Source of the DNA: an uncultured Candidatus Saccharibacteria bacterium
GTDB taxonomy: Bacteria > Patescibacteriota > Minisyncoccia > Phycocordibacterales > Phycocordibacteraceae
Direction: 5' to 3'
Assembly (NCBI GenBank): GCA_964593365.1
Contig: CAZQGQ010000004.1
Coordinates: 1 to 44,868 of the forward strand
DNA: 44,868 bases
The notes under the pieces are model-generated. The model was given only the letters and a program-made list of their open reading frames with translations. It was not told where the DNA came from and ran no database searches. Below, one piece after another: positions 1,779-44,868 of the stretch. Within the stretch, counting starts at the first letter, position 1. Each line of letters opens with the position of its first letter. A program made the position numbers and the translations under genes.

Positions 1779-1788
1779 TTTGGCGAAA

Positions 1789-1831
1789 GAAAATAAGAGG
1801 ACCCCACGCGACATCACGAAGCGTAGGGCCC
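1789..1831 (-). terminator. Terminal hairpin/terminator of the Trp unit
   Basis: Minus strand GGGCCCTACGC-TTCGTGATGTC-GCGTGGGGTCC followed by TCTTATTTT. Confidence 0.7.
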
Positions 1832-1866
1832 AATAGTTATTGCCTGTTCAGGCTAGTGCCAACTGC

Positions 1867-1875
1867 TTACCACAT
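1867..1875 (-). CDS. Two-codon minigene Met-Trp-stop
   Basis: Minus strand AAGGGAG-7 nt-ATG TGG TAA GC, downstream of a Trp attenuator; positional twin of ATG CAC TAA GC at 2749-2757. Confidence 0.65.
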   Translation of the reverse strand: MW

Positions 1876-1916
1876 AGTTGGTCTCCCTTCATAAGGCTGG
1901 TCTGTAAGGTAGACGC

Positions 1917-1995
1917 AAAACCCCTCCGTAAGGAGGGGGTTGGCTTTATGCGTGGTTCAGGCATCAAGACAATCCTCTCCTTAGGAGGGGATGGT
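1917..1995 (-). promoter_or_regulatory. Transcription attenuator (Trp-responsive)
   Basis: Segment 1 1995-1984, segment 2 1980-1961, segment 3 1951-1932 (16 of 20 positions pair with segment 2); terminator AACCCCCTCC-TTAC-GGAGGGGTTTT 1941-1917. Confidence 0.8.
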
Positions 1996-2052
1996 CCAGG
2001 CCCACATGCCAAAACGCGCGGCAGAAATGGAAGCGGTGGCGTTTCGATTCAT
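1981..2052 (-). CDS. Trp leader peptide MNRNATASISAARFGMWAWTIPS (23 aa)
   Basis: ATG 7 nt after a -10 box; TGG-GCC-TGG directly before attenuator segment 1; stop codon directly before segment 2. Confidence 0.75.
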   Translation of the reverse strand: MNRNATASISAARFGMWAWTIPS

Positions 2053-2059
2053 TAGTACT

Positions 2060-2087
2060 ACCCTAGCAATTCCAGTAGAGTCGTCAA
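2060..2087 (-). promoter_or_regulatory. Sigma70-type promoter of the Trp unit
   Basis: TTGACG-16 nt-TAGGGT with extended TGn. Confidence 0.65.
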
Positions 2088-2124
2088 GCCACAGCGAATA
2101 GCCCAAAACTGCTATAGTTTGCGT

Positions 2125-2682
2125 ATGACGAGCAGCATTCAAGACAAGATAGCCCTCTTCGAGCGTGTATTGGCTGAAGTCCCCGAACTTCGCTATGCAG
2201 GCGATCCCATCCTTCGAACGCCAGCAAAAAGCGTGGCCTTGGAAGAAGGTCTTTTGATAGGGAAGCGGCTGGAAGAGGTACTGCTTCGCTTCCGTGCGAT
2301 TACTGGCGTTGGACGAGGGCTTGCAGCTCCGCAAATTGGAGAAGGTGCTTCTGTTTTTATTACGTACGTAGATGACACGGTTGAGACATTCATCAATCCC
2401 CGCATCGTTTCGACATCTGACACGAACAATATGTACAAAGAGCTTTGCATGAGCGTTGGCATTCTTGCAGCTGAAGTTGAGCGGGCAGAGGAAATACAGA
2501 TGGAGTGGACGGACGCTGAAGGGAACTCGCGCTCTGGGACTTTCAGTGGTTTTCTTGCGCGCCTCTATCAGCACGAGGAAGCCCATTTGCAGGGTCGTTT
2601 GAATATAGACGAGGCTACGCCAGGGGGAATTGAGTTTGCCACCTTTGACCCGCTCCAGGAAAAATTGCGACCGGTGAAATAA
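2125..2682 (+). CDS. def: Peptide deformylase (divergent motifs)
   Basis: GRGLAAPQIG, FINPRI, ELCMS (canonical EGCLS), QHEEAHLQG (HExxH); ATG 6 nt after TG-C-TATAGT. Confidence 0.88.
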   Translation: MTSSIQDKIALFERVLAEVPELRYAGDPILRTPAKSVALEEGLLIGKRLEEVLLRFRAITGVGRGLAAPQIGEGASVFITYVDDTVETFINPRIVSTSDTNNMYKELCMSVGILAAEVERAEEIQMEWTDAEGNSRSGTFSGFLARLYQHEEAHLQGRLNIDEATPGGIEFATFDPLQEKLRPVK

Positions 2683-2723
2683 AAGAAGCCCACGCAACGA
2701 CTAACGAAGTCGCGTGGGCTTCT
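2679..2723 (-). terminator. Terminal hairpin/terminator of the His unit
   Basis: Minus strand AGAAGCCCACGC...GCGTGGGCTTCT followed by TTTATTT; may also terminate def on the plus strand. Confidence 0.75.
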
Positions 2724-2748: not shown

Positions 2749-2757
2749 TTAGTGCAT
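2749..2757 (-). CDS. Two-codon minigene Met-His-stop
   Basis: Minus strand GGAGG-5 nt-ATG CAC TAA GC, downstream of a His attenuator. Confidence 0.65.
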   Translation of the reverse strand: MH

Positions 2758-2803
2758 TGTCGCCTCCACTTTCGGGCCTTCCGTTTTATGGATTAACGAA
2801 TTG

Positions 2804-2898
2804 AACCCCTCGTCACTTGCGTGAGGAGGGGGCTATCTTCATGACACTCATCAAGACAATCCTCTCCGCGCGCGTGACGCCGGATGGTGCAGTTTATG
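2804..2898 (-). promoter_or_regulatory. Transcription attenuator (His-responsive) overlapping the 3' end of the repressor gene
   Basis: His codons at 2898-2896 and 2889-2884; segment 2 2867-2848 (19 nt identical to the Trp unit); segment 3 2844-2825; hairpin 2834-2804 with a GCAA loop and a weak U tract. Confidence 0.72.
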
Positions 2899-3162
2899 CA
2901 TCATCATTTTGTAACCGCCTTCTCCTTCCTGGAGCCACTTCGATACGCGAGCAACGGTCGTTGAGCTAAAGCCCGTTTTCTTCTCGATCTCGGTGTAGGG
3001 AACGTGCTTTGAAAGGAGCTCTGCCGTCTGGAAGCGCTTAGCGAACTCCGTGATCTCGCCTTCGGTCATAAGGTCGCGCAAAAAGCGTCGAACCTCATCC
3101 GGAGTTTCAAGGGCGAGCAGGGACTCGATAAGGCGGCGGTTTTCTTTCAAGGTCCAATTCAT
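2851..3162 (-). CDS. YerC/YecD (HisR), TrpR-like DNA-binding repressor with His-rich C-terminus
   Basis: FLRDLMTEGE...YTEIEKKTGFSSTTVARVSKWL..G.GGY matches the YerC/TrpR-related pattern; tail MMMHKLHHPASRARRGLS. Confidence 0.88.
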   Translation of the reverse strand: MNWTLKENRRLIESLLALETPDEVRRFLRDLMTEGEITEFAKRFQTAELLSKHVPYTEIEKKTGFSSTTVARVSKWLQEGEGGYKMMMHKLHHPASRARRGLS

Positions 3163-3169
3163 CAAGAGG

Positions 3170-3244: not shown

Positions 3245-3321
3245 GGCGGCCTTAGCTCAGCTGGTAGAGCTCCGGTTTGTGGTACCGGCGGTCGTGGGTT
3301 CGAGCCCCACAGGTCGCCCCA
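3245..3321 (+). tRNA. tRNA-His(GTG)
   Basis: G-1 followed by GCGGCCT acceptor pairing with AGGTCGC-C-CCA; anticodon arm CCGGT-TTGTGGT-ACCGG. Confidence 0.96.
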
Positions 3322-10113: not shown

Positions 10114-11232
10114 CTACTCAGCGTAATCTGCATTCTCTCCGTTTGTAACGATGCGCATGTCCCAGAGGAAGCCGCCTTCAAGGTCGCCGTTCTCATCAAA
10201 TGAGATCGTGGAGACTGAAACCCCGTTTTCATAGGTTAGCTTATCGAGGTAATCGCGTACGGCGTCTTTGTCGGTTCCGACCGCGTCAAACGCCTGCGCA
10301 AAGATCATCACGGCGTCATAGGAGAATCCAGACACTTCGCTTGCGGCACGACCCGTCTCTTCGACCACTCGGTCCGTGAAGTCTTGAGGAGCCTTTGAGA
10401 TAGGAAGGGTGAACAGGACACCTTCTGCTTCGGGAACATCGTAGATTTCATCAGTTGCAAACAGGTCGGTTCCGACAAGCGGCACGTTCACATTCGCTTC
10501 TTTTAATTGCTTGATTGCTGCGGCTCCTGTTTGCGGGAAGAGGGCAAGATATACCGCTTCTGGATTGGTATCTTTTATCTTTGCGACTGATCCGCGCACT
10601 TCAGTCGCTTCCTGAAGCGAGCCCTCAATGATCGTTATTGTTCCTCCGAGCGCTTCGAAGTCGTGGACGAACTTATCTTTAAGCTCGATGCCCCAGTCGC
10701 TGTTGACGTAAAGAACTGCGACATTTTTCTTCTGGAGCGTGTTGAAAATAAACTCTGCAGAAAAACCAGCTTGAGACGCGTCTGACGGATAGTTGCGGAA
10801 GATGTAGTCACCTACGCGCGTGAGAGAAGGGGCGGACGCACCGATGATGACCGGGACACCAGCCTCCTGTGCGATCGGAAGACCAGCACCTGCCGTTGGG
10901 GAGCACAGCGGCCCAACGATCGCATCAACCTGATCCACGCTAATGAATTTGTTGAATATTGTTGCGCCGGTAGCGGTAACGCAGCGACTGTCCTCGATAA
11001 CAAGTTCGACCAGGCGTCCGTCGATACCCCCTCGCTCGTTTATGTCCTTAACGGCAAGCTCTGCACCTCCGGCCCACGCCTCACCGAATCCCGCCGCTTC
11101 TCCTGTCATGGGAGAAGAGAGCCCGAGCTTAATGGATCCCTTGTCAGACGCCTGGTTATTGTTGGCATACAGGCCAAGGGCAATAAGGATAATAACGAGC
11201 CCGGCAGTAATAAGAAGCTGTGTTCGGTTCAT
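10114..11232 (-). CDS. Branched-chain amino acid (LivJ/LivK-like) substrate-binding protein
   Basis: IKLGLSSPMTG..A..G, DINERGGIDGRLVELVIED, YIFRNYPSD, YDAV; N-terminal TM anchor. Confidence 0.88.
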   Translation of the reverse strand: MNRTQLLITAGLVIILIALGLYANNNQASDKGSIKLGLSSPMTGEAAGFGEAWAGGAELAVKDINERGGIDGRLVELVIEDSRCVTATGATIFNKFISVDQVDAIVGPLCSPTAGAGLPIAQEAGVPVIIGASAPSLTRVGDYIFRNYPSDASQAGFSAEFIFNTLQKKNVAVLYVNSDWGIELKDKFVHDFEALGGTITIIEGSLQEATEVRGSVAKIKDTNPEAVYLALFPQTGAAAIKQLKEANVNVPLVGTDLFATDEIYDVPEAEGVLFTLPISKAPQDFTDRVVEETGRAASEVSGFSYDAVMIFAQAFDAVGTDKDAVRDYLDKLTYENGVSVSTISFDENGDLEGGFLWDMRIVTNGENADYAE

Positions 11233-38872: not shown

Positions 38873-38907
38873 TCTCTAGATCTAACGATCTAAAGGTCAC
38901 AACCTAC

Positions 38908-38935
38908 AAAAACCGCCCCTTAGGGGGCGGTTTTT
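38908..38935 (+). terminator. Intrinsic terminator
   Basis: AAAAACCGCCCC-TTAG-GGGGCGGTTTTT. Confidence 0.88.
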
Positions 38936-39044
38936 GTTTACCCTGACAAGCAAAGTTATCCCCTATCTCGAAGAAGATGCGAGGAATAGGGGTTACACTA
39001 GGTACAAACGACGCTGTCGTTTACTAATTAATAAAATCATTACT

Positions 39045-44359: not shown

Positions 44360-44868
44360 CAGGAAACACTGAAGGGTGCGCGGTGGATGCCTAGGCTTAC
44401 AACAGCGATGAAGGACGCGATTAACCGGCGAAACGCTTCGGGGAGGTGGTTATTAACCTTTGATCCGGAGATATCCGAATGGGGAAACCCAGACCTTTAT
44501 TGGTCTATCTCTTCCATTACAGGAAGGGGAGCGAACCTCGGGAAGTGAAACATCTCAGTACCGAGAGGAATAGAAAACAACAGCGAGTTGTGTTCTCTTC
44601 AAGCATTATGTTTGTTTGAAGGGAACACAACTCTCGCGATTTCCTTAGTAGCGGCGAGCGAAACGGAAACAGCCCAAACCGTAGGTCTTCGGACTTGCGG
44701 GGTAGTAAGACGGAAGCGCCGTACTTGTACGGCATAAGTTACAAAACGTTTCTATAGCGGAAGTTGCTGGAAAGCAACGCCCCAGAGGGTAATGGCCCCG
44801 TACGCGAAATAGAAATGACTTATGTGCTTCTGTTCTTGAGTAACTCGAGACACGAATAGCTCGGGCGA
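44360..44868 (+). rRNA. rrl: 23S rRNA, 5' portion (runs off the window; 5' end approximate)
   Basis: CGGTGGATGCCTAGGC, GCGATGAAGGACG, CCGAATGGGGAAACCC, GAAGTGAAACATCTCAGTACC, AGTAGCGGCGAGCGAA. Confidence 0.97.

What the first reader, a model, noticed from the sequence alone, without database searches (positions are those of the whole stretch)
1867..1889. Met-Trp-stop minigene with an SD, sitting in a hairpin loop
Minus strand AAGGGAG-ACCAACT-ATG-TGG-TAA-GC-AGTTGG lies 41 nt past the attenuator terminator. CCAACT/AGTTGG can pair and place the whole minigene in the loop. Most genes in this window lack an SD, so its presence here suggests selection for initiation. Established: two-codon minigenes such as lambda bar cause peptidyl-tRNA drop-off and tRNA sequestration. 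The function here is inference.
Basis: partly seen in the sequence, partly recalled or inferred. Interest (0 to 1): 0.88.

Follow-up and report, generated by a model that had tools for sequence, protein, structure and literature searches.

The report
Two-codon stub after tryptophan attenuator
The Met-Trp-stop mini-gene is real and sits exactly where related bacteria start the gene controlled by a tryptophan-sensing RNA switch, so it is probably the stub of a lost gene, although a matching Met-His-stop after a histidine switch nearby keeps a real function possible.

Summary
The string is in the sequence exactly as described. It belongs to a compact minus-strand unit: promoter, leaderless leader ORF (…MWAWTIPS*), alternative pairings 1:2/3:4 versus 2:3, terminator T1, 41 nt, AAGGGAG-N7-ATG-TGG-TAA, then its own terminator T2. 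The attenuator is a conserved, uncatalogued family in this small-genome (Patescibacteria-like) order.

In 10 of 10 Trp-type relatives a 37-100-codon ORF starts 21-45 nt after T1. None starts ATG-TGG or stops early, and the T1-T2 stretch has no homologue in 221 genus genomes.

The "SD" argument fails. SD motifs are not enriched in this genome, and 4 of 4 congeners checked lack the CCUCC anti-SD. The hairpin folds no better than shuffles.

One result argues for function. A second unit 890 nt away is a histidine attenuator fed by the His-rich tail of a HisR/YerC-like gene, and it ends in GGAGG-N5-ATG-CAC-TAA. So both orphan attenuators carry a two-codon ORF whose second codon matches the sensed amino acid.

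Odds: neutral stub of a lost gene about 0.45; selected amino-acid-matched mini-cistron about 0.35.

The parts
2060..2087 (-). Putative promoter of the Trp unit: TTGACG (2087-2082), 16-nt spacer, TAGGGT (2065-2060). The A of the leader ATG lies 7 nt further on, giving a leaderless mRNA.
   Evidence: Read. The consensus scan did not list it (only 3 of 6 matches in the -10 hexamer). TATACT-like boxes 7-12 nt before ATGs are the most enriched upstream words in this genome and precede the leader ATG in relatives. This part is inferred.
1981..2052 (-). Leader ORF MNRNATASISAARFGMWAWTIPS*. Trp codons at 2004-2002 and 1998-1996; stop at 1983-1981.
   Evidence: The aligned position carries one or two TGG in 10 of 10 Trp-type relatives, within F/Y-W-Y/F-W-F-T.
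1984..1990 (-). Segment 1 (CCCCTCC), which pairs with segment 2.
   Evidence: Helix 1:2 has 79-83% standard pairs, and 3 of 7 pairs show compensatory change over 21 sequences.
1962..1980 (-). Segment 2 plus the 5' arm of the middle helix: the 19-mer GGAGAGGATTGTCTTGATG, which is the 5' strand of the 19-bp antiterminator.
   Evidence: The MFE fold chooses the antiterminator rod.
1917..1950 (-). CATAAAGCCAA plus segment 3 (CCCCCTCC 1939-1932), loop, segment 4 (GGAGGGG 1927-1921) and T-run 1920-1917. This is terminator T1; its 5' half is the 3' strand of the antiterminator.
1900..1914 (-). Small hairpin GTCT-ACCTTAC-AGAC just after T1.
   Evidence: MFE. A hairpin with a TACCT-type loop stands at the same place after T1 in hisR-type units of other families (by eye).
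1883..1889 (-).
   Evidence: Similar G-rich purine motifs precede the controlled ORF in 13 of 13 relatives tabulated. A canonical anti-SD is lacking in congeners.
1867..1875 (-). ATG-TGG-TAA two-codon ORF (the finding).
1859..1881 (-). CCAACT / AGTTGG inverted repeat around the mini-ORF.
   Evidence: not better than shuffles.
1785..1831 (-). Terminator T2 of the unit: GGGCCCTACGC (1831-1821), loop, GCGTGGGGTCC (1809-1799), then T-rich tail 1798-1785. It ends 7 nt before the convergent tRNA-Leu.
   Evidence: listed in part as 1822-1801; 11-bp stem in the MFE.
2851..3165 (-). HisR/YerC-like gene (Trp_repressor family). Its tail ...MMMHKLHHPASRARRGLS* runs into the second copy of the 19-mer (2867-2849). 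His codons at 2898-2896, 2889-2887 and 2886-2884.
   Evidence: PF01371, E 6e-20, residues 11-92. His-rich tails followed by the same attenuator occur in relatives.
2806..2843 (-). 3' strand of the second antiterminator plus terminator-like hairpin T1' (CCCCTC ... GAGGGG with an inner TCAC/GTGA stem and GCAA loop). Its T-run is degenerate (TTCAATTCG).
   Evidence: CM 17.9 bits, E 0.0014.
2749..2767 (-). GGAGG (2767-2763), 5 nt, ATG-CAC-TAA (2757-2749): a second two-codon ORF, Met-His-stop.
   Evidence: It lies 94 nt after the hisR stop. Relatives start a 54-312-codon ORF 76-151 nt after theirs.
2681..2723 (-). Strong terminator T2' with its T-run on the minus strand. It overlaps the stop codon of the convergent def gene.
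   Evidence: z = -4.6 for the interval.

Best explanation
ATG-TGG-TAA is all that stands at the position of the controlled cistron in a self-contained, ribosome-mediated tryptophan attenuator unit.

How the unit works:
1. A leaderless leader ORF (…M-W-A-W-T-I-P-S*) is translated while the RNA is being made.
2. With enough charged tRNA-Trp the ribosome runs to the stop. Segments 1:2 and 3:4 form and transcription ends at T1.
3. When tRNA-Trp is short, the ribosome stalls on the Trp codons and covers segment 1. The 19-bp 2:3 helix forms and transcription runs on through the mini-ORF to a second terminator, T2.

In relatives this read-through expresses a small zinc-ribbon protein gene that starts at the same distance behind a similar purine motif. 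In this genome that gene is gone and its ancestral locus has collapsed.

I judge the two-codon ORF most likely a lineage-specific stub of that gene's translation start. It is not a conserved bar-like minigene, and its purine motif is not a working Shine-Dalgarno site.

Shown: the attenuator anatomy and its conservation; the positional equivalence; the lack of conservation of the mini-ORF; the lack of SD use.
Inferred: the promoter, read-through on Trp shortage, the gene-loss history, and absence of function.
For: **Family**
- The 19-mer with up to 2 mismatches occurs in 12 of 259 family genomes, G000 included; all are in the same genus, and the reversed control gave 2 hits.
- 9 of the 11 foreign hits are full attenuators. 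L006 and L011 are not.
- The covariance model finds it in 22 of 151 genus genomes at E<=0.001 and in 13 of 151 order genomes at E<=1e-4, both counts with G000. Several weak hits are plain terminators.

**Structure**
- 91.1% of cells pair in the terminator state and 83.6% in the antiterminator on 10 sequences.
- On 21 sequences, compensatory changes occur in 3 of 7, 4 of 6 and 5 of 7 pairs of the three helices and in 12 of 19 antiterminator pairs (on a CM-fitted alignment).

**Leader**
- TGG stands at the aligned place in 10 of 10 Trp-type relatives. The peptide frame downstream of it is not kept, which points to an RNA-level constraint.

**Position**
- In 13 of 13 relatives tabulated, the first ORF behind a purine motif starts 21-55 nt after T1 and has 37-296 codons. 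In the window the starts are at +42 and +46, each with 2 codons.
- 14 more hisR-type relatives have 54-312-codon ORFs and no SD-led ORF of 5 codons or fewer.

**No conservation**
-.

**Gene loss**
- In G000 the kinase gene and the pyrH-like gene abut, and the NUDIX gene has moved. The ancestral locus (kinase, then NUDIX and/or a small conserved ORF, attenuator, zinc-ribbon ORF, convergent pyrH-like gene) no longer exists.
- Partner genes of the hisR units were not found in G000 with two queries.

**Decay of the sister His unit**
- HH instead of HHH, T-run lost, and the GTTCTTT…GGAG start motif lost.

**SD**
- and PMC9297842.
Against: **Two stubs, both codon-matched**
- Both orphan units end in exactly two codons, and in both the second codon is the amino acid sensed by the leader (TGG after the Trp leader, CAC after the His leader). 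Both are followed by TAAGC.
- If ATG is taken as inherited and the next bases as random, codon identity alone has p of about (1/61)(2/61). It is still about 1/61 if the His case is discounted because 2 of about 19 His-type relatives also start ATG-CAC (starts partly read by eye).
- These are the only ATG-TGG-stop and ATG-CAC-stop among the 38 SD-led two-codon ORFs of the genome.

**The Trp unit looks maintained**
- Its leader, helices, T-run and T2 are intact. It is as conserved at the DNA level (72-82%) as rplS (71-79%), while def gives no DNA match in the same 5 genomes. That is unexpected for a useless relic in a 0.7-Mb genome.

**No trace of the lost gene**
- No remnant of a lost gene is detectable between T1 and T2.
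Confidence: 0.45

Rival explanations
1. Selected, amino-acid-matched mini-cistron. The two-codon ORF is the maintained output of the orphan attenuator. It is transcribed only on read-through, when the cognate charged tRNA is low. A ribosome that starts on AUG must then wait for the same scarce tRNA at codon 2. This could hold a ribosome with a hungry A site (a RelA-type alarm), or trap the tRNA as fMet-aa-tRNA that drops off at the stop and needs Pth (bar-like amplification of the starvation signal), or protect the short RNA.
For: - The same design occurs twice in one genome with matching codons: M-W after the Trp leader and M-H after the His leader. Each has a purine motif 5-7 nt upstream, TAAGC after codon 2, similar distances from T1 (42 and 46 nt), and its own terminator.
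- Shuffle frequencies for a cognate SD-led two-codon ORF are 2e-5 and 9.5e-5.
- The Trp unit is intact and conserved.
- Pth and a RelA/SpoT homologue are encoded.
- Natural two-codon ORFs with cis effects are in print: LEE1 leader (PMC3262186, abstract) and axe-txe (PMC8708949, abstract). Hungry codons next to the start act like minigenes (PMC2490762, listing and abstract start only).
Against: - It is found in this one genome only: 0 of 10 Trp-type and 0 of 17 His-type relatives examined have a short ORF there.
- No homologue of the interval exists in 221 genus genomes.
- No working SD is expected, and the hairpins are not significant.
- There is no downstream cistron to act on, unlike the published cases.
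- The His unit shows decay.
- The best alignment of the two intervals does not put the two mini-ORFs opposite each other.
- The codon match was noticed after the fact.
Confidence: 0.35
2. Codon display to a tRNA, not translation. UGG and CAC sit in hairpin loops and pair with the anticodons of tRNA-Trp and tRNA-His (the genome's tRNA-His has anticodon GUG). This would resemble a minimal specifier loop and add a tRNA-binding step to the read-through RNA.
For: Both codons lie in loops closed by short stems of like design: stem, AU, G-N pair, 5-nt loop NNUAA, GC, stem. CAC is the exact Watson-Crick partner of the GUG anticodon.
Against: - No T-box or other family match at E<=10 over 1600-2300.
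- No platform for the tRNA elbow, no T-box bulge, and no gene or switchable terminator to control.
- The folds are not better than shuffles.
- No conservation.
Confidence: 0.05
3. Chance: an accidental ATG-NNN-stop with an accidental purine run, of no evolutionary meaning.
For: 513 two-codon ORFs exist in the genome and 38 have an SD-like 4-mer. The hairpin is at chance level.
Against: - The expected frequency in this 83-nt interval is 0.0034, and 7.5e-6 for both intervals together.
- The motif plus ATG stand at the conserved start position of the controlled cistron.
- The context CAG-CCTTAT-GAAGGGAG resembles the conserved CAG-TTCTTT-…GGAG start region of relatives (by eye).
Confidence: 0.05

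Closest known systems
Ribosome-mediated attenuators of amino-acid operons (enterobacterial trp and his leaders; Rfam Trp_leader and His_leader; candidate His attenuators of Firmicutes in PMC9413887)
   Same: A short leader ORF carries the regulatory codons just before segment 1. Pairings 1:2/3:4 and 2:3 are mutually exclusive. An intrinsic terminator with a T-run follows. Trp and His versions share one scaffold.
   Different: - No Rfam model matches, even at E<=10.
- The leader mRNA appears leaderless.
- The host lacks TrpA and has no HisA/F hit above cut-off, so no biosynthetic operon is controlled.
- In relatives the controlled genes are small 4-Cys ORFs or proteins without a Pfam family.
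- In the His version the 'leader' is the C-terminal tail of the hisR-like gene.
- In this window nothing but two codons follows.
Phage lambda bar minigenes and synthetic two-codon minigenes
   Same: A start codon, one sense codon and a stop, with a purine motif at SD distance. Pth is present in the genome.
   Different: - bar toxicity needs strong SD-driven initiation, high expression and limiting Pth.
- Here SD use is not detectable and congeners lack the anti-SD.
- Expression would be gated by an attenuator.
- No conservation.
Natural regulatory two-codon ORFs: LEE1 leader AUG-AAA-UAG (PMC3262186, abstract) and axe-txe mg2 (PMC8708949, abstract)
   Same: Two-codon ORFs inside leaders, and they are translated.
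   Different: Those act in cis on the next cistron, with distance and frame being critical. Here no cistron follows: the next element is a terminator and then a convergent tRNA gene.
HisR (YerC), the histidine-responsive TrpR-family repressor (PMC9413887, passages seen)
   Same: The neighbouring ORF 3165-2851 matches Trp_repressor (PF01371) and is YerC-like in length and sequence. Its link to histidine fits the His codons of its tail.
   Different: The published survey, as far as the passages seen go, does not include this phylum and describes no His-rich tail feeding an attenuator. Orthology and histidine binding were not tested here.

Membership tests
Ribosome-mediated transcription attenuator (trp/his leader class) | Short leader ORF with regulatory codons placed just upstream of segment 1 | tested here: met
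   The window has W-A-W 2004-1996, 5 nt before CCCCTCC. TGG stands at the aligned site in 10 of 10 Trp-type relatives. His runs stand there in the His-type units.
Ribosome-mediated transcription attenuator (trp/his leader class) | Mutually exclusive terminator and antiterminator pairings, kept in evolution | tested here: met
   (91.1% and 83.6% paired); compensatory changes in 12 of 19 antiterminator pairs and 5 of 7 terminator pairs on a CM-fitted alignment of 21 sequences. MFE.
Ribosome-mediated transcription attenuator (trp/his leader class) | Intrinsic terminator with a U-run | tested here: met
   7-bp stem with 6 GC pairs, then TTTT. In the sister His unit the U-run is degenerate.
Ribosome-mediated transcription attenuator (trp/his leader class) | A controlled gene downstream on the same strand | tested here: not met
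   In the window only ATG-TGG-TAA and then terminator T2 follow. The feature is met in 13 of 13 and 14 of 14 relatives.
Ribosome-mediated transcription attenuator (trp/his leader class) | Termination responds to charged tRNA | not testable with these tools
   Needs in vitro transcription-translation or in vivo reporters.
Rfam Trp_leader / His_leader / T-box | Match to the curated covariance model | tested here: not met
   apart from the tRNA, nothing reached any family's gathering score (best other match E 0.89), and none of the weak matches is one of these families.
bar-type minigene (drop-off / tRNA sequestration) | Start codon, one sense codon, stop | tested here: met
bar-type minigene (drop-off / tRNA sequestration) | Efficient ribosome binding site | tested here: inconclusive
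   The purine motif is at the right distance. However, SD words occur at 6.4% against 6.85% background, and 4 of 4 congener 16S ends lack CCUCC. The 16S gene of this genome is not in the assembly.
bar-type minigene (drop-off / tRNA sequestration) | Translation, peptidyl-tRNA release, effect on the tRNA pool | not testable with these tools
   No RNA run is listed as a holder. No ribosome profiling is available.
HisR/YerC (TrpR family) | Trp_repressor fold, about 100 aa | tested here: met
   PF01371, E 6e-20, 71.5 bits against a cut-off of 27.
HisR/YerC (TrpR family) | Histidine-dependent DNA binding and a HisR operator | not tested
   No operator search or assay was done. The link rests on PMC9413887 (passages) and the His-codon context.

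The most novel reading that the evidence does not exclude
In this reduced genome two attenuators have been rebuilt into stand-alone starvation sensors. Their only output is a two-codon cistron carrying the very codon that the leader senses (Met-Trp after the Trp leader, Met-His after the His leader). Read-through on shortage makes an RNA that loads a ribosome onto a hungry second codon. This would be a gated ribosome or tRNA trap that amplifies or reports shortage of one amino acid, for example through RelA or through peptidyl-tRNA drop-off. No such device has been described.
Probability: 0.3. Interest if true: 0.85.

Novelty: new variant of a known kind. Interest (0 to 1): 0.6.

Why it matters
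- **If the stub reading is right,** the minigene itself is ordinary. The work still exposes an uncatalogued family of ribosome-mediated Trp and His attenuators in tiny, auxotrophic, SD-less bacteria that have no Trp or His biosynthesis to regulate.
- **A repressor gene's tail may act as a leader peptide.** The histidine leader appears to be the C-terminal tail of a HisR-like repressor gene. This arrangement is conserved across many families of the order.
- **If the matched Met-Trp and Met-His mini-cistrons are selected,** they would be the first natural case of amino-acid-specific two-codon ORFs as the end product of an attenuator. That gives a directly testable model of how a minimal cell senses shortage of single amino acids.

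Tried and rejected
- **Rfam.** At gathering score over the whole window and at E<=10 over 1600-2300, no known RNA family explains the stretch.
- **Repeat or mobile element.** The 19-mer occurs only twice in the genome. ATGNNNTAAGC occurs 10 times against 22 expected, with nothing else in common.
- **Third attenuator in the window.** The CM hit at 38905-39009 (E 0.002) is a plain terminator between two large genes. The own-genome hit at C7:4635-4706 has W-Y-W in a frame that has no start codon after the preceding stop.
- **Metagenome scan.** Of the 80 loci returned, only L123, and weakly L069, matched the model. The cap for that collection is now spent, so close relatives in metagenomes were not found.
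- **Expression.** No RNA holder is listed.
- **Strain variation.** Contigs of 4 DNA runs are identical over the locus, so they give no test of selection. Parts without cover are not interpreted.
- **Pseudogene remnant.** Local alignments of both T1-T2 intervals to 13 relatives' downstream 580 nt gave only a few matches of 33-34 nt (z 3.2-5.2) that lie about 370-520 nt into that window (well past the small controlled ORFs), read by eye as chance.
- **Paralogy of the two intervals.** The global alignment has z = 5.4, but this is driven by the T2 hairpins, and the two mini-ORFs are not aligned to each other.
- **tRNA-His next to hisR as a conserved link.** Not seen in 17 relatives' loci.
- **Pfam for the His-controlled proteins** (294, 296 and 116 aa): no family.
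- **Supplements of papers** were not opened. The supplementary genome lists of PMC9413887 could show whether any Patescibacteria hisR was covered.
- **Literature on novelty.** The search 'leader peptide' + 'attenuation' + 'Patescibacteria' found 0 papers. I ran no other search on that point.
Full report
**1. What is there**

The neighbours are:
- rplS (+, 1136-1651);
- tRNA-Leu(GAG) (+, 1694-1778);
- peptide deformylase (+, 2119-2682; PF01327);
- a Trp_repressor-family ORF (-, 3165-2851; PF01371, E 6e-20);
- tRNA-His(GUG) (+, 3246-3321).

The window is contig C4 of a 716,520-bp, 47-contig genome scored 99.7% complete. It has a 23S rRNA with an insertion. It has no TrpA and no HisA/F hit above cut-off. 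This is the profile of a small, auxotrophic, Patescibacteria-like organism.

**2. The upstream 'attenuator' is real and belongs to a conserved family**

The 340-nt spacer between tRNA-Leu and def matched one of 60 relatives over 81 nt (82% identity). It also matched a second place in the window itself.

The shared core is the 19-mer GGAGAGGATTGTCTTGATG. It is present twice in the genome, at 1980-1962 and 2867-2849, both on the minus strand.

With up to 2 mismatches it occurs in 12 of 259 genomes of the family, all in the window's genus; the reversed control gave 2 hits. Nine of the 11 foreign sites share the whole element:
- a TATACT-like -10 box about 10 nt before an ATG;
- a short ORF with F/Y-W-Y/F-W-F-T;
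- CCCCTCC (segment 1);
- GGAGAGG (segment 2) followed by ATTGTnTTGATG;
- a variable loop;
- CATCAAnCCAn;
- CCCCCTCC (segment 3), a loop, GGAGGGG (segment 4) and a T-run.

Segments 1:2 and 3:4 give a hairpin plus terminator. Alternatively the 19-mer pairs over 19 positions with CATCAA…CCCCCTCC, which is the antiterminator.

On 10 sequences, 91.1% of cells pair in the first state and 83.6% in the second.

A covariance model (R1) finds the element in 22 of 151 genus genomes at E<=0.001 and in 13 of 151 genomes of the order at E<=1e-4. Both counts include the window's genome, and some weak hits are plain terminators.

On 21 curated rows of the model-fitted alignment, compensatory changes occur in 3 of 7, 4 of 6 and 5 of 7 pairs of the three helices and in 12 of 19 pairs of the antiterminator. 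The alignment was fitted to the terminator state, so the antiterminator count is the more independent one.

The peptide frame after W-F-T is not kept among relatives (for example L009 against L007), so the downstream conservation is at the RNA level. The MFE fold of the window's unit chooses the antiterminator rod. No Rfam family matches.

In the window the leader is MNRNATASISAARFGMWAWTIPS* (2052-1981). A plausible promoter is TTGACG-16-TAGGGT, which puts the transcript start at the A of the ATG (read; inferred). This fits the genome's habit. The most enriched words within 22 nt before ATG starts are ATACT, TACTA and TATAC, at 8-9 fold, which indicates leaderless mRNAs.

**3. The mini-ORF stands at the start of the controlled cistron**

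In 13 of 13 relatives tabulated, the first ORF behind a G-rich purine motif starts 21-55 nt after T1 and has 37-296 codons. These were 10 Trp-type relatives (L007, L008, L009, L012-L016, L024, L025) and 3 His-type (L010, L026, L123).

In the window the ATG is 42 nt after the T1 arm and the ORF has 2 codons.

The context CAG-CCTTAT-GAAGGGAG-N7-ATG resembles the CAG-TTCTTT-(N)-GGGAG/AAAAAGGAG-N-ATG start region seen in relatives (by eye). A small hairpin with a TACCT-type loop follows T1 in the window as in other units (by eye).

In Trp-type relatives the controlled ORFs are small (55-80 aa), very diverse 4-Cys zinc-ribbon-like proteins. They are convergent with a pyrH-like gene. The attenuator itself lies downstream of a kinase gene and then a NUDIX gene and/or a small conserved ORF, in varying combinations.

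In the window's genome that locus has collapsed. The kinase gene (C6:9667-10224) and the pyrH-like gene (10227-10937) are 2 nt apart, and the NUDIX gene sits on another contig next to an unrelated convergent gene. So the Trp unit sits at a new place without its gene.

The unit also has its own terminator T2: an 11-bp stem at 1831-1799 with a T-rich tail on the minus strand. It is therefore a closed transcription unit of about 270 nt.

**4.

*Conservation.* None of the 10 Trp-type relatives has TGG as codon 2 or an early stop. The 147 nt from T1 to the tRNA have no match better than a 24-nt hit at E 0.001 in 221 other genomes of the genus. Nothing in the interval resembles the relatives' controlled genes.

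*SD.*
- GGAG/GAGG/AGGA at -14..-5 precedes 31 of 483 long ORFs (6.4%), against 6.85% at random positions.
- The genome's 16S gene is not in the assembly.
- In 4 of 4 congeners whose 16S end I read, the tail is …GGAACAUAUCCAAU or a close variant, with no CCUCC.
- Loss of the anti-SD in a subgroup of Parcubacteria is published (PMC9297842, passages).

So the motif cannot be taken as a working SD. Its regular presence before attenuator-controlled ORFs suggests some other role in these start regions, which I could not define.

*Hairpin.* It is not better than shuffles (131 of 200 fold as well).

*Expression and strain variation.* No RNA run is listed, and the DNA contigs of four runs are identical over the locus, so there is no evidence either way.

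**5. The second unit**

The other 19-mer copy lies at the 3' end of the Trp_repressor-family ORF. Its tail reads …GGYKMMMHKLHHPASRARRGLS*, and the stop lies inside the 19-mer.

YerC of B. subtilis is the histidine-responsive repressor HisR of the TrpR family (PMC9413887, passages).

His-rich tails of the type …K-L/I-H-H-H-N/S-S-x-Q-x-R-R-G-L-S*, running into the same antiterminator and terminator, occur in these places:
- in the genus (L172, L174, L175);
- in a metagenome contig (L123);
- in at least 12 genomes of other families of the order (L233-L241, L243-L245).

Homologues were found in 31 of 401 order genomes at E<=1e-12, G000 included.

Stand-alone His leaders on the same scaffold also exist: L010 with E-H-H-S, L026 with Q-H-H-H, L224 with H-N-H-H.

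In 14 of 14 hisR-type relatives scanned, a 54-312-codon ORF starts 76-151 nt after the hisR stop, and no SD-led ORF of 5 codons or fewer precedes it.

In the window, 94 nt after the hisR stop, stands GGAGG-CGACA-ATG-CAC-TAA-GC (2767-2747), followed by a strong minus-strand terminator that abuts def. Two partner-gene families of relatives were not found in this genome (one query each, so 'not found with this query').

The His unit looks worn: HH instead of HHH, no T-run after T1', and no GTTCTTT…GGAG start motif.

**6. Weighing**

Both orphan attenuators of this genome are followed, at the conserved start position, by a two-codon ORF whose second codon is the amino acid that the leader senses.

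Arguments against accident:
- These are the only ATG-TGG-stop and ATG-CAC-stop among the genome's 38 SD-led two-codon ORFs, and 2 of the 6 that are intergenic.
- Shuffles give 2e-5 and 9.5e-5 for such a cognate ORF in the two intervals, and 0.0034 and 0.0022 for any SD-led two-codon ORF.
- Chance alone is thus excluded, but the proper null is inheritance of motif plus ATG from a lost gene. Under that null the codon match has p of about 5e-4. It is about 1/61 if the His case is set aside because 2 of about 19 His-type relatives (L010, L217) also begin ATG-CAC (some starts read by eye).
- The Trp unit is intact. At the DNA level it is as conserved as rplS (72-82% against 71-79%), while def gives no DNA match in the same five genomes.

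Arguments against function:
- The design is unique to this genome.
- No working SD is expected.
- No cistron follows on which a mini-ORF could act, unlike the published LEE1 and axe-txe cases (PMC3262186 and PMC8708949, abstracts).
- The His unit is decaying.
- The two mini-ORFs are not aligned to each other in the best alignment of the two intervals.
- The match was noticed post hoc.

I therefore put a neutral stub at about 0.45, a selected amino-acid-matched mini-cistron at about 0.35, a tRNA-displaying loop at about 0.05 and chance at about 0.05, with the remainder (about 0.10) unassigned.

Pth and a RelA/SpoT homologue are present. Either a drop-off or a stalled-ribosome alarm mechanism is therefore possible in principle, but neither is shown.

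**7. Comparison and novelty**

The switch works like the classical trp and his attenuators but is not a member of any curated family. It controls no biosynthetic genes.

The mini-ORF has the form of a bar-type or LEE1-type two-codon ORF. It fails the conservation test, and its ribosome-binding feature is inconclusive.

The overall object is an orphan attenuator ending in a cognate two-codon ORF, which I class as a new variant of a known kind. A search for 'leader peptide' + 'attenuation' + 'Patescibacteria' found 0 papers; I did not search further for prior descriptions.

**8. Verdict**

- Observation: confirmed.
- Interpretation: partly supported. The context is right; the SD, hairpin and conservation arguments are not.
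- Interest: 0.6. This rests mainly on the attenuator family, the HisR-tail leader and the unexplained Met-Trp / Met-His parallel.

Noticed in passing
window 2749-2767 (-): A second two-codon ORF, GGAGG-N5-ATG-CAC-TAA (Met-His-stop). It lies 94 nt after the stop of the HisR-like gene and about 46 nt after a His-type attenuator hairpin.
   Followed up: yes
window 2849-3165 (-); L123, L172, L174, L175, L233-L241, L243-L245: A HisR/YerC-like (Trp_repressor family) gene whose C-terminal tail carries 2-3 His codons and ends inside the antiterminator of an attenuator. The repressor's own tail would then serve as a histidine leader peptide. The arrangement is conserved across many families of the order.
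   Followed up: partly
L229-L232 (16S 3' ends of four congeners); whole genome G000: The genus lacks the CCUCC anti-SD (the tail reads …GGAACAUAUCCAAU or a close variant). SD words are not enriched before genes. TATACT boxes 7-12 nt before ATGs are enriched 8-9 fold, which points to widespread leaderless mRNAs.
   Followed up: partly
L009, L010, L013, L026, L123, L175, L233, L236, L237, L243, L244 (about 15-25 nt before the controlled ORF's ATG): A conserved start-region motif, (A)GTTCTTT(AAAAA)GGAG, stands before attenuator-controlled ORFs, even in lineages that appear not to use SD. A conserved hairpin (TTTGCC…TACCT loop…GGCAAA, with compensatory variants) lies between T1 and this motif. Its role is unknown.
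   Followed up: no
L007, L009, L012, L013, L015, L016, L024, L025 (first ORF after T1): The genes controlled by the Trp-type attenuator are small (55-80 aa), highly divergent 4-Cys zinc-ribbon-like ORFs of unknown function. The leader's sensing run is aromatic (F-W-Y-W-F), so it may sense more than Trp.
   Followed up: no
L007 and L014 against L008 (between T1 and the zinc-ribbon ORF): An extra segment of about 85 nt is present in L007 and L014 and absent from the otherwise near-identical L008. It has a long hairpin with compensatory changes and could also be read as a 37-codon ORF (MRRIVLRTL…). It may be a second RNA element or an insertion.
   Followed up: no
L038 (G063): A weaker model hit with a leader rich in Met codons (A-M-M-A-S-M), possibly a Met version of the same scaffold.
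   Followed up: no
G000 C6:9667-10937 and C2:25336-25788: The locus that holds the Trp attenuator in relatives has collapsed here: the kinase and pyrH-like genes are 2 nt apart and the NUDIX gene has moved to another contig.
   Followed up: yes
window 44360-44868 (+): Start of a 23S rRNA gene with a 55-nt insertion relative to the bacterial model near model position 230. No 16S gene is in the window or the assembly.
   Followed up: no
window 2106-2127 (+): The def gene appears leaderless (TATAGT 6 nt before the ATG). Its promoter lies back to back with the putative promoter of the Trp unit, so the two may compete.
   Followed up: no
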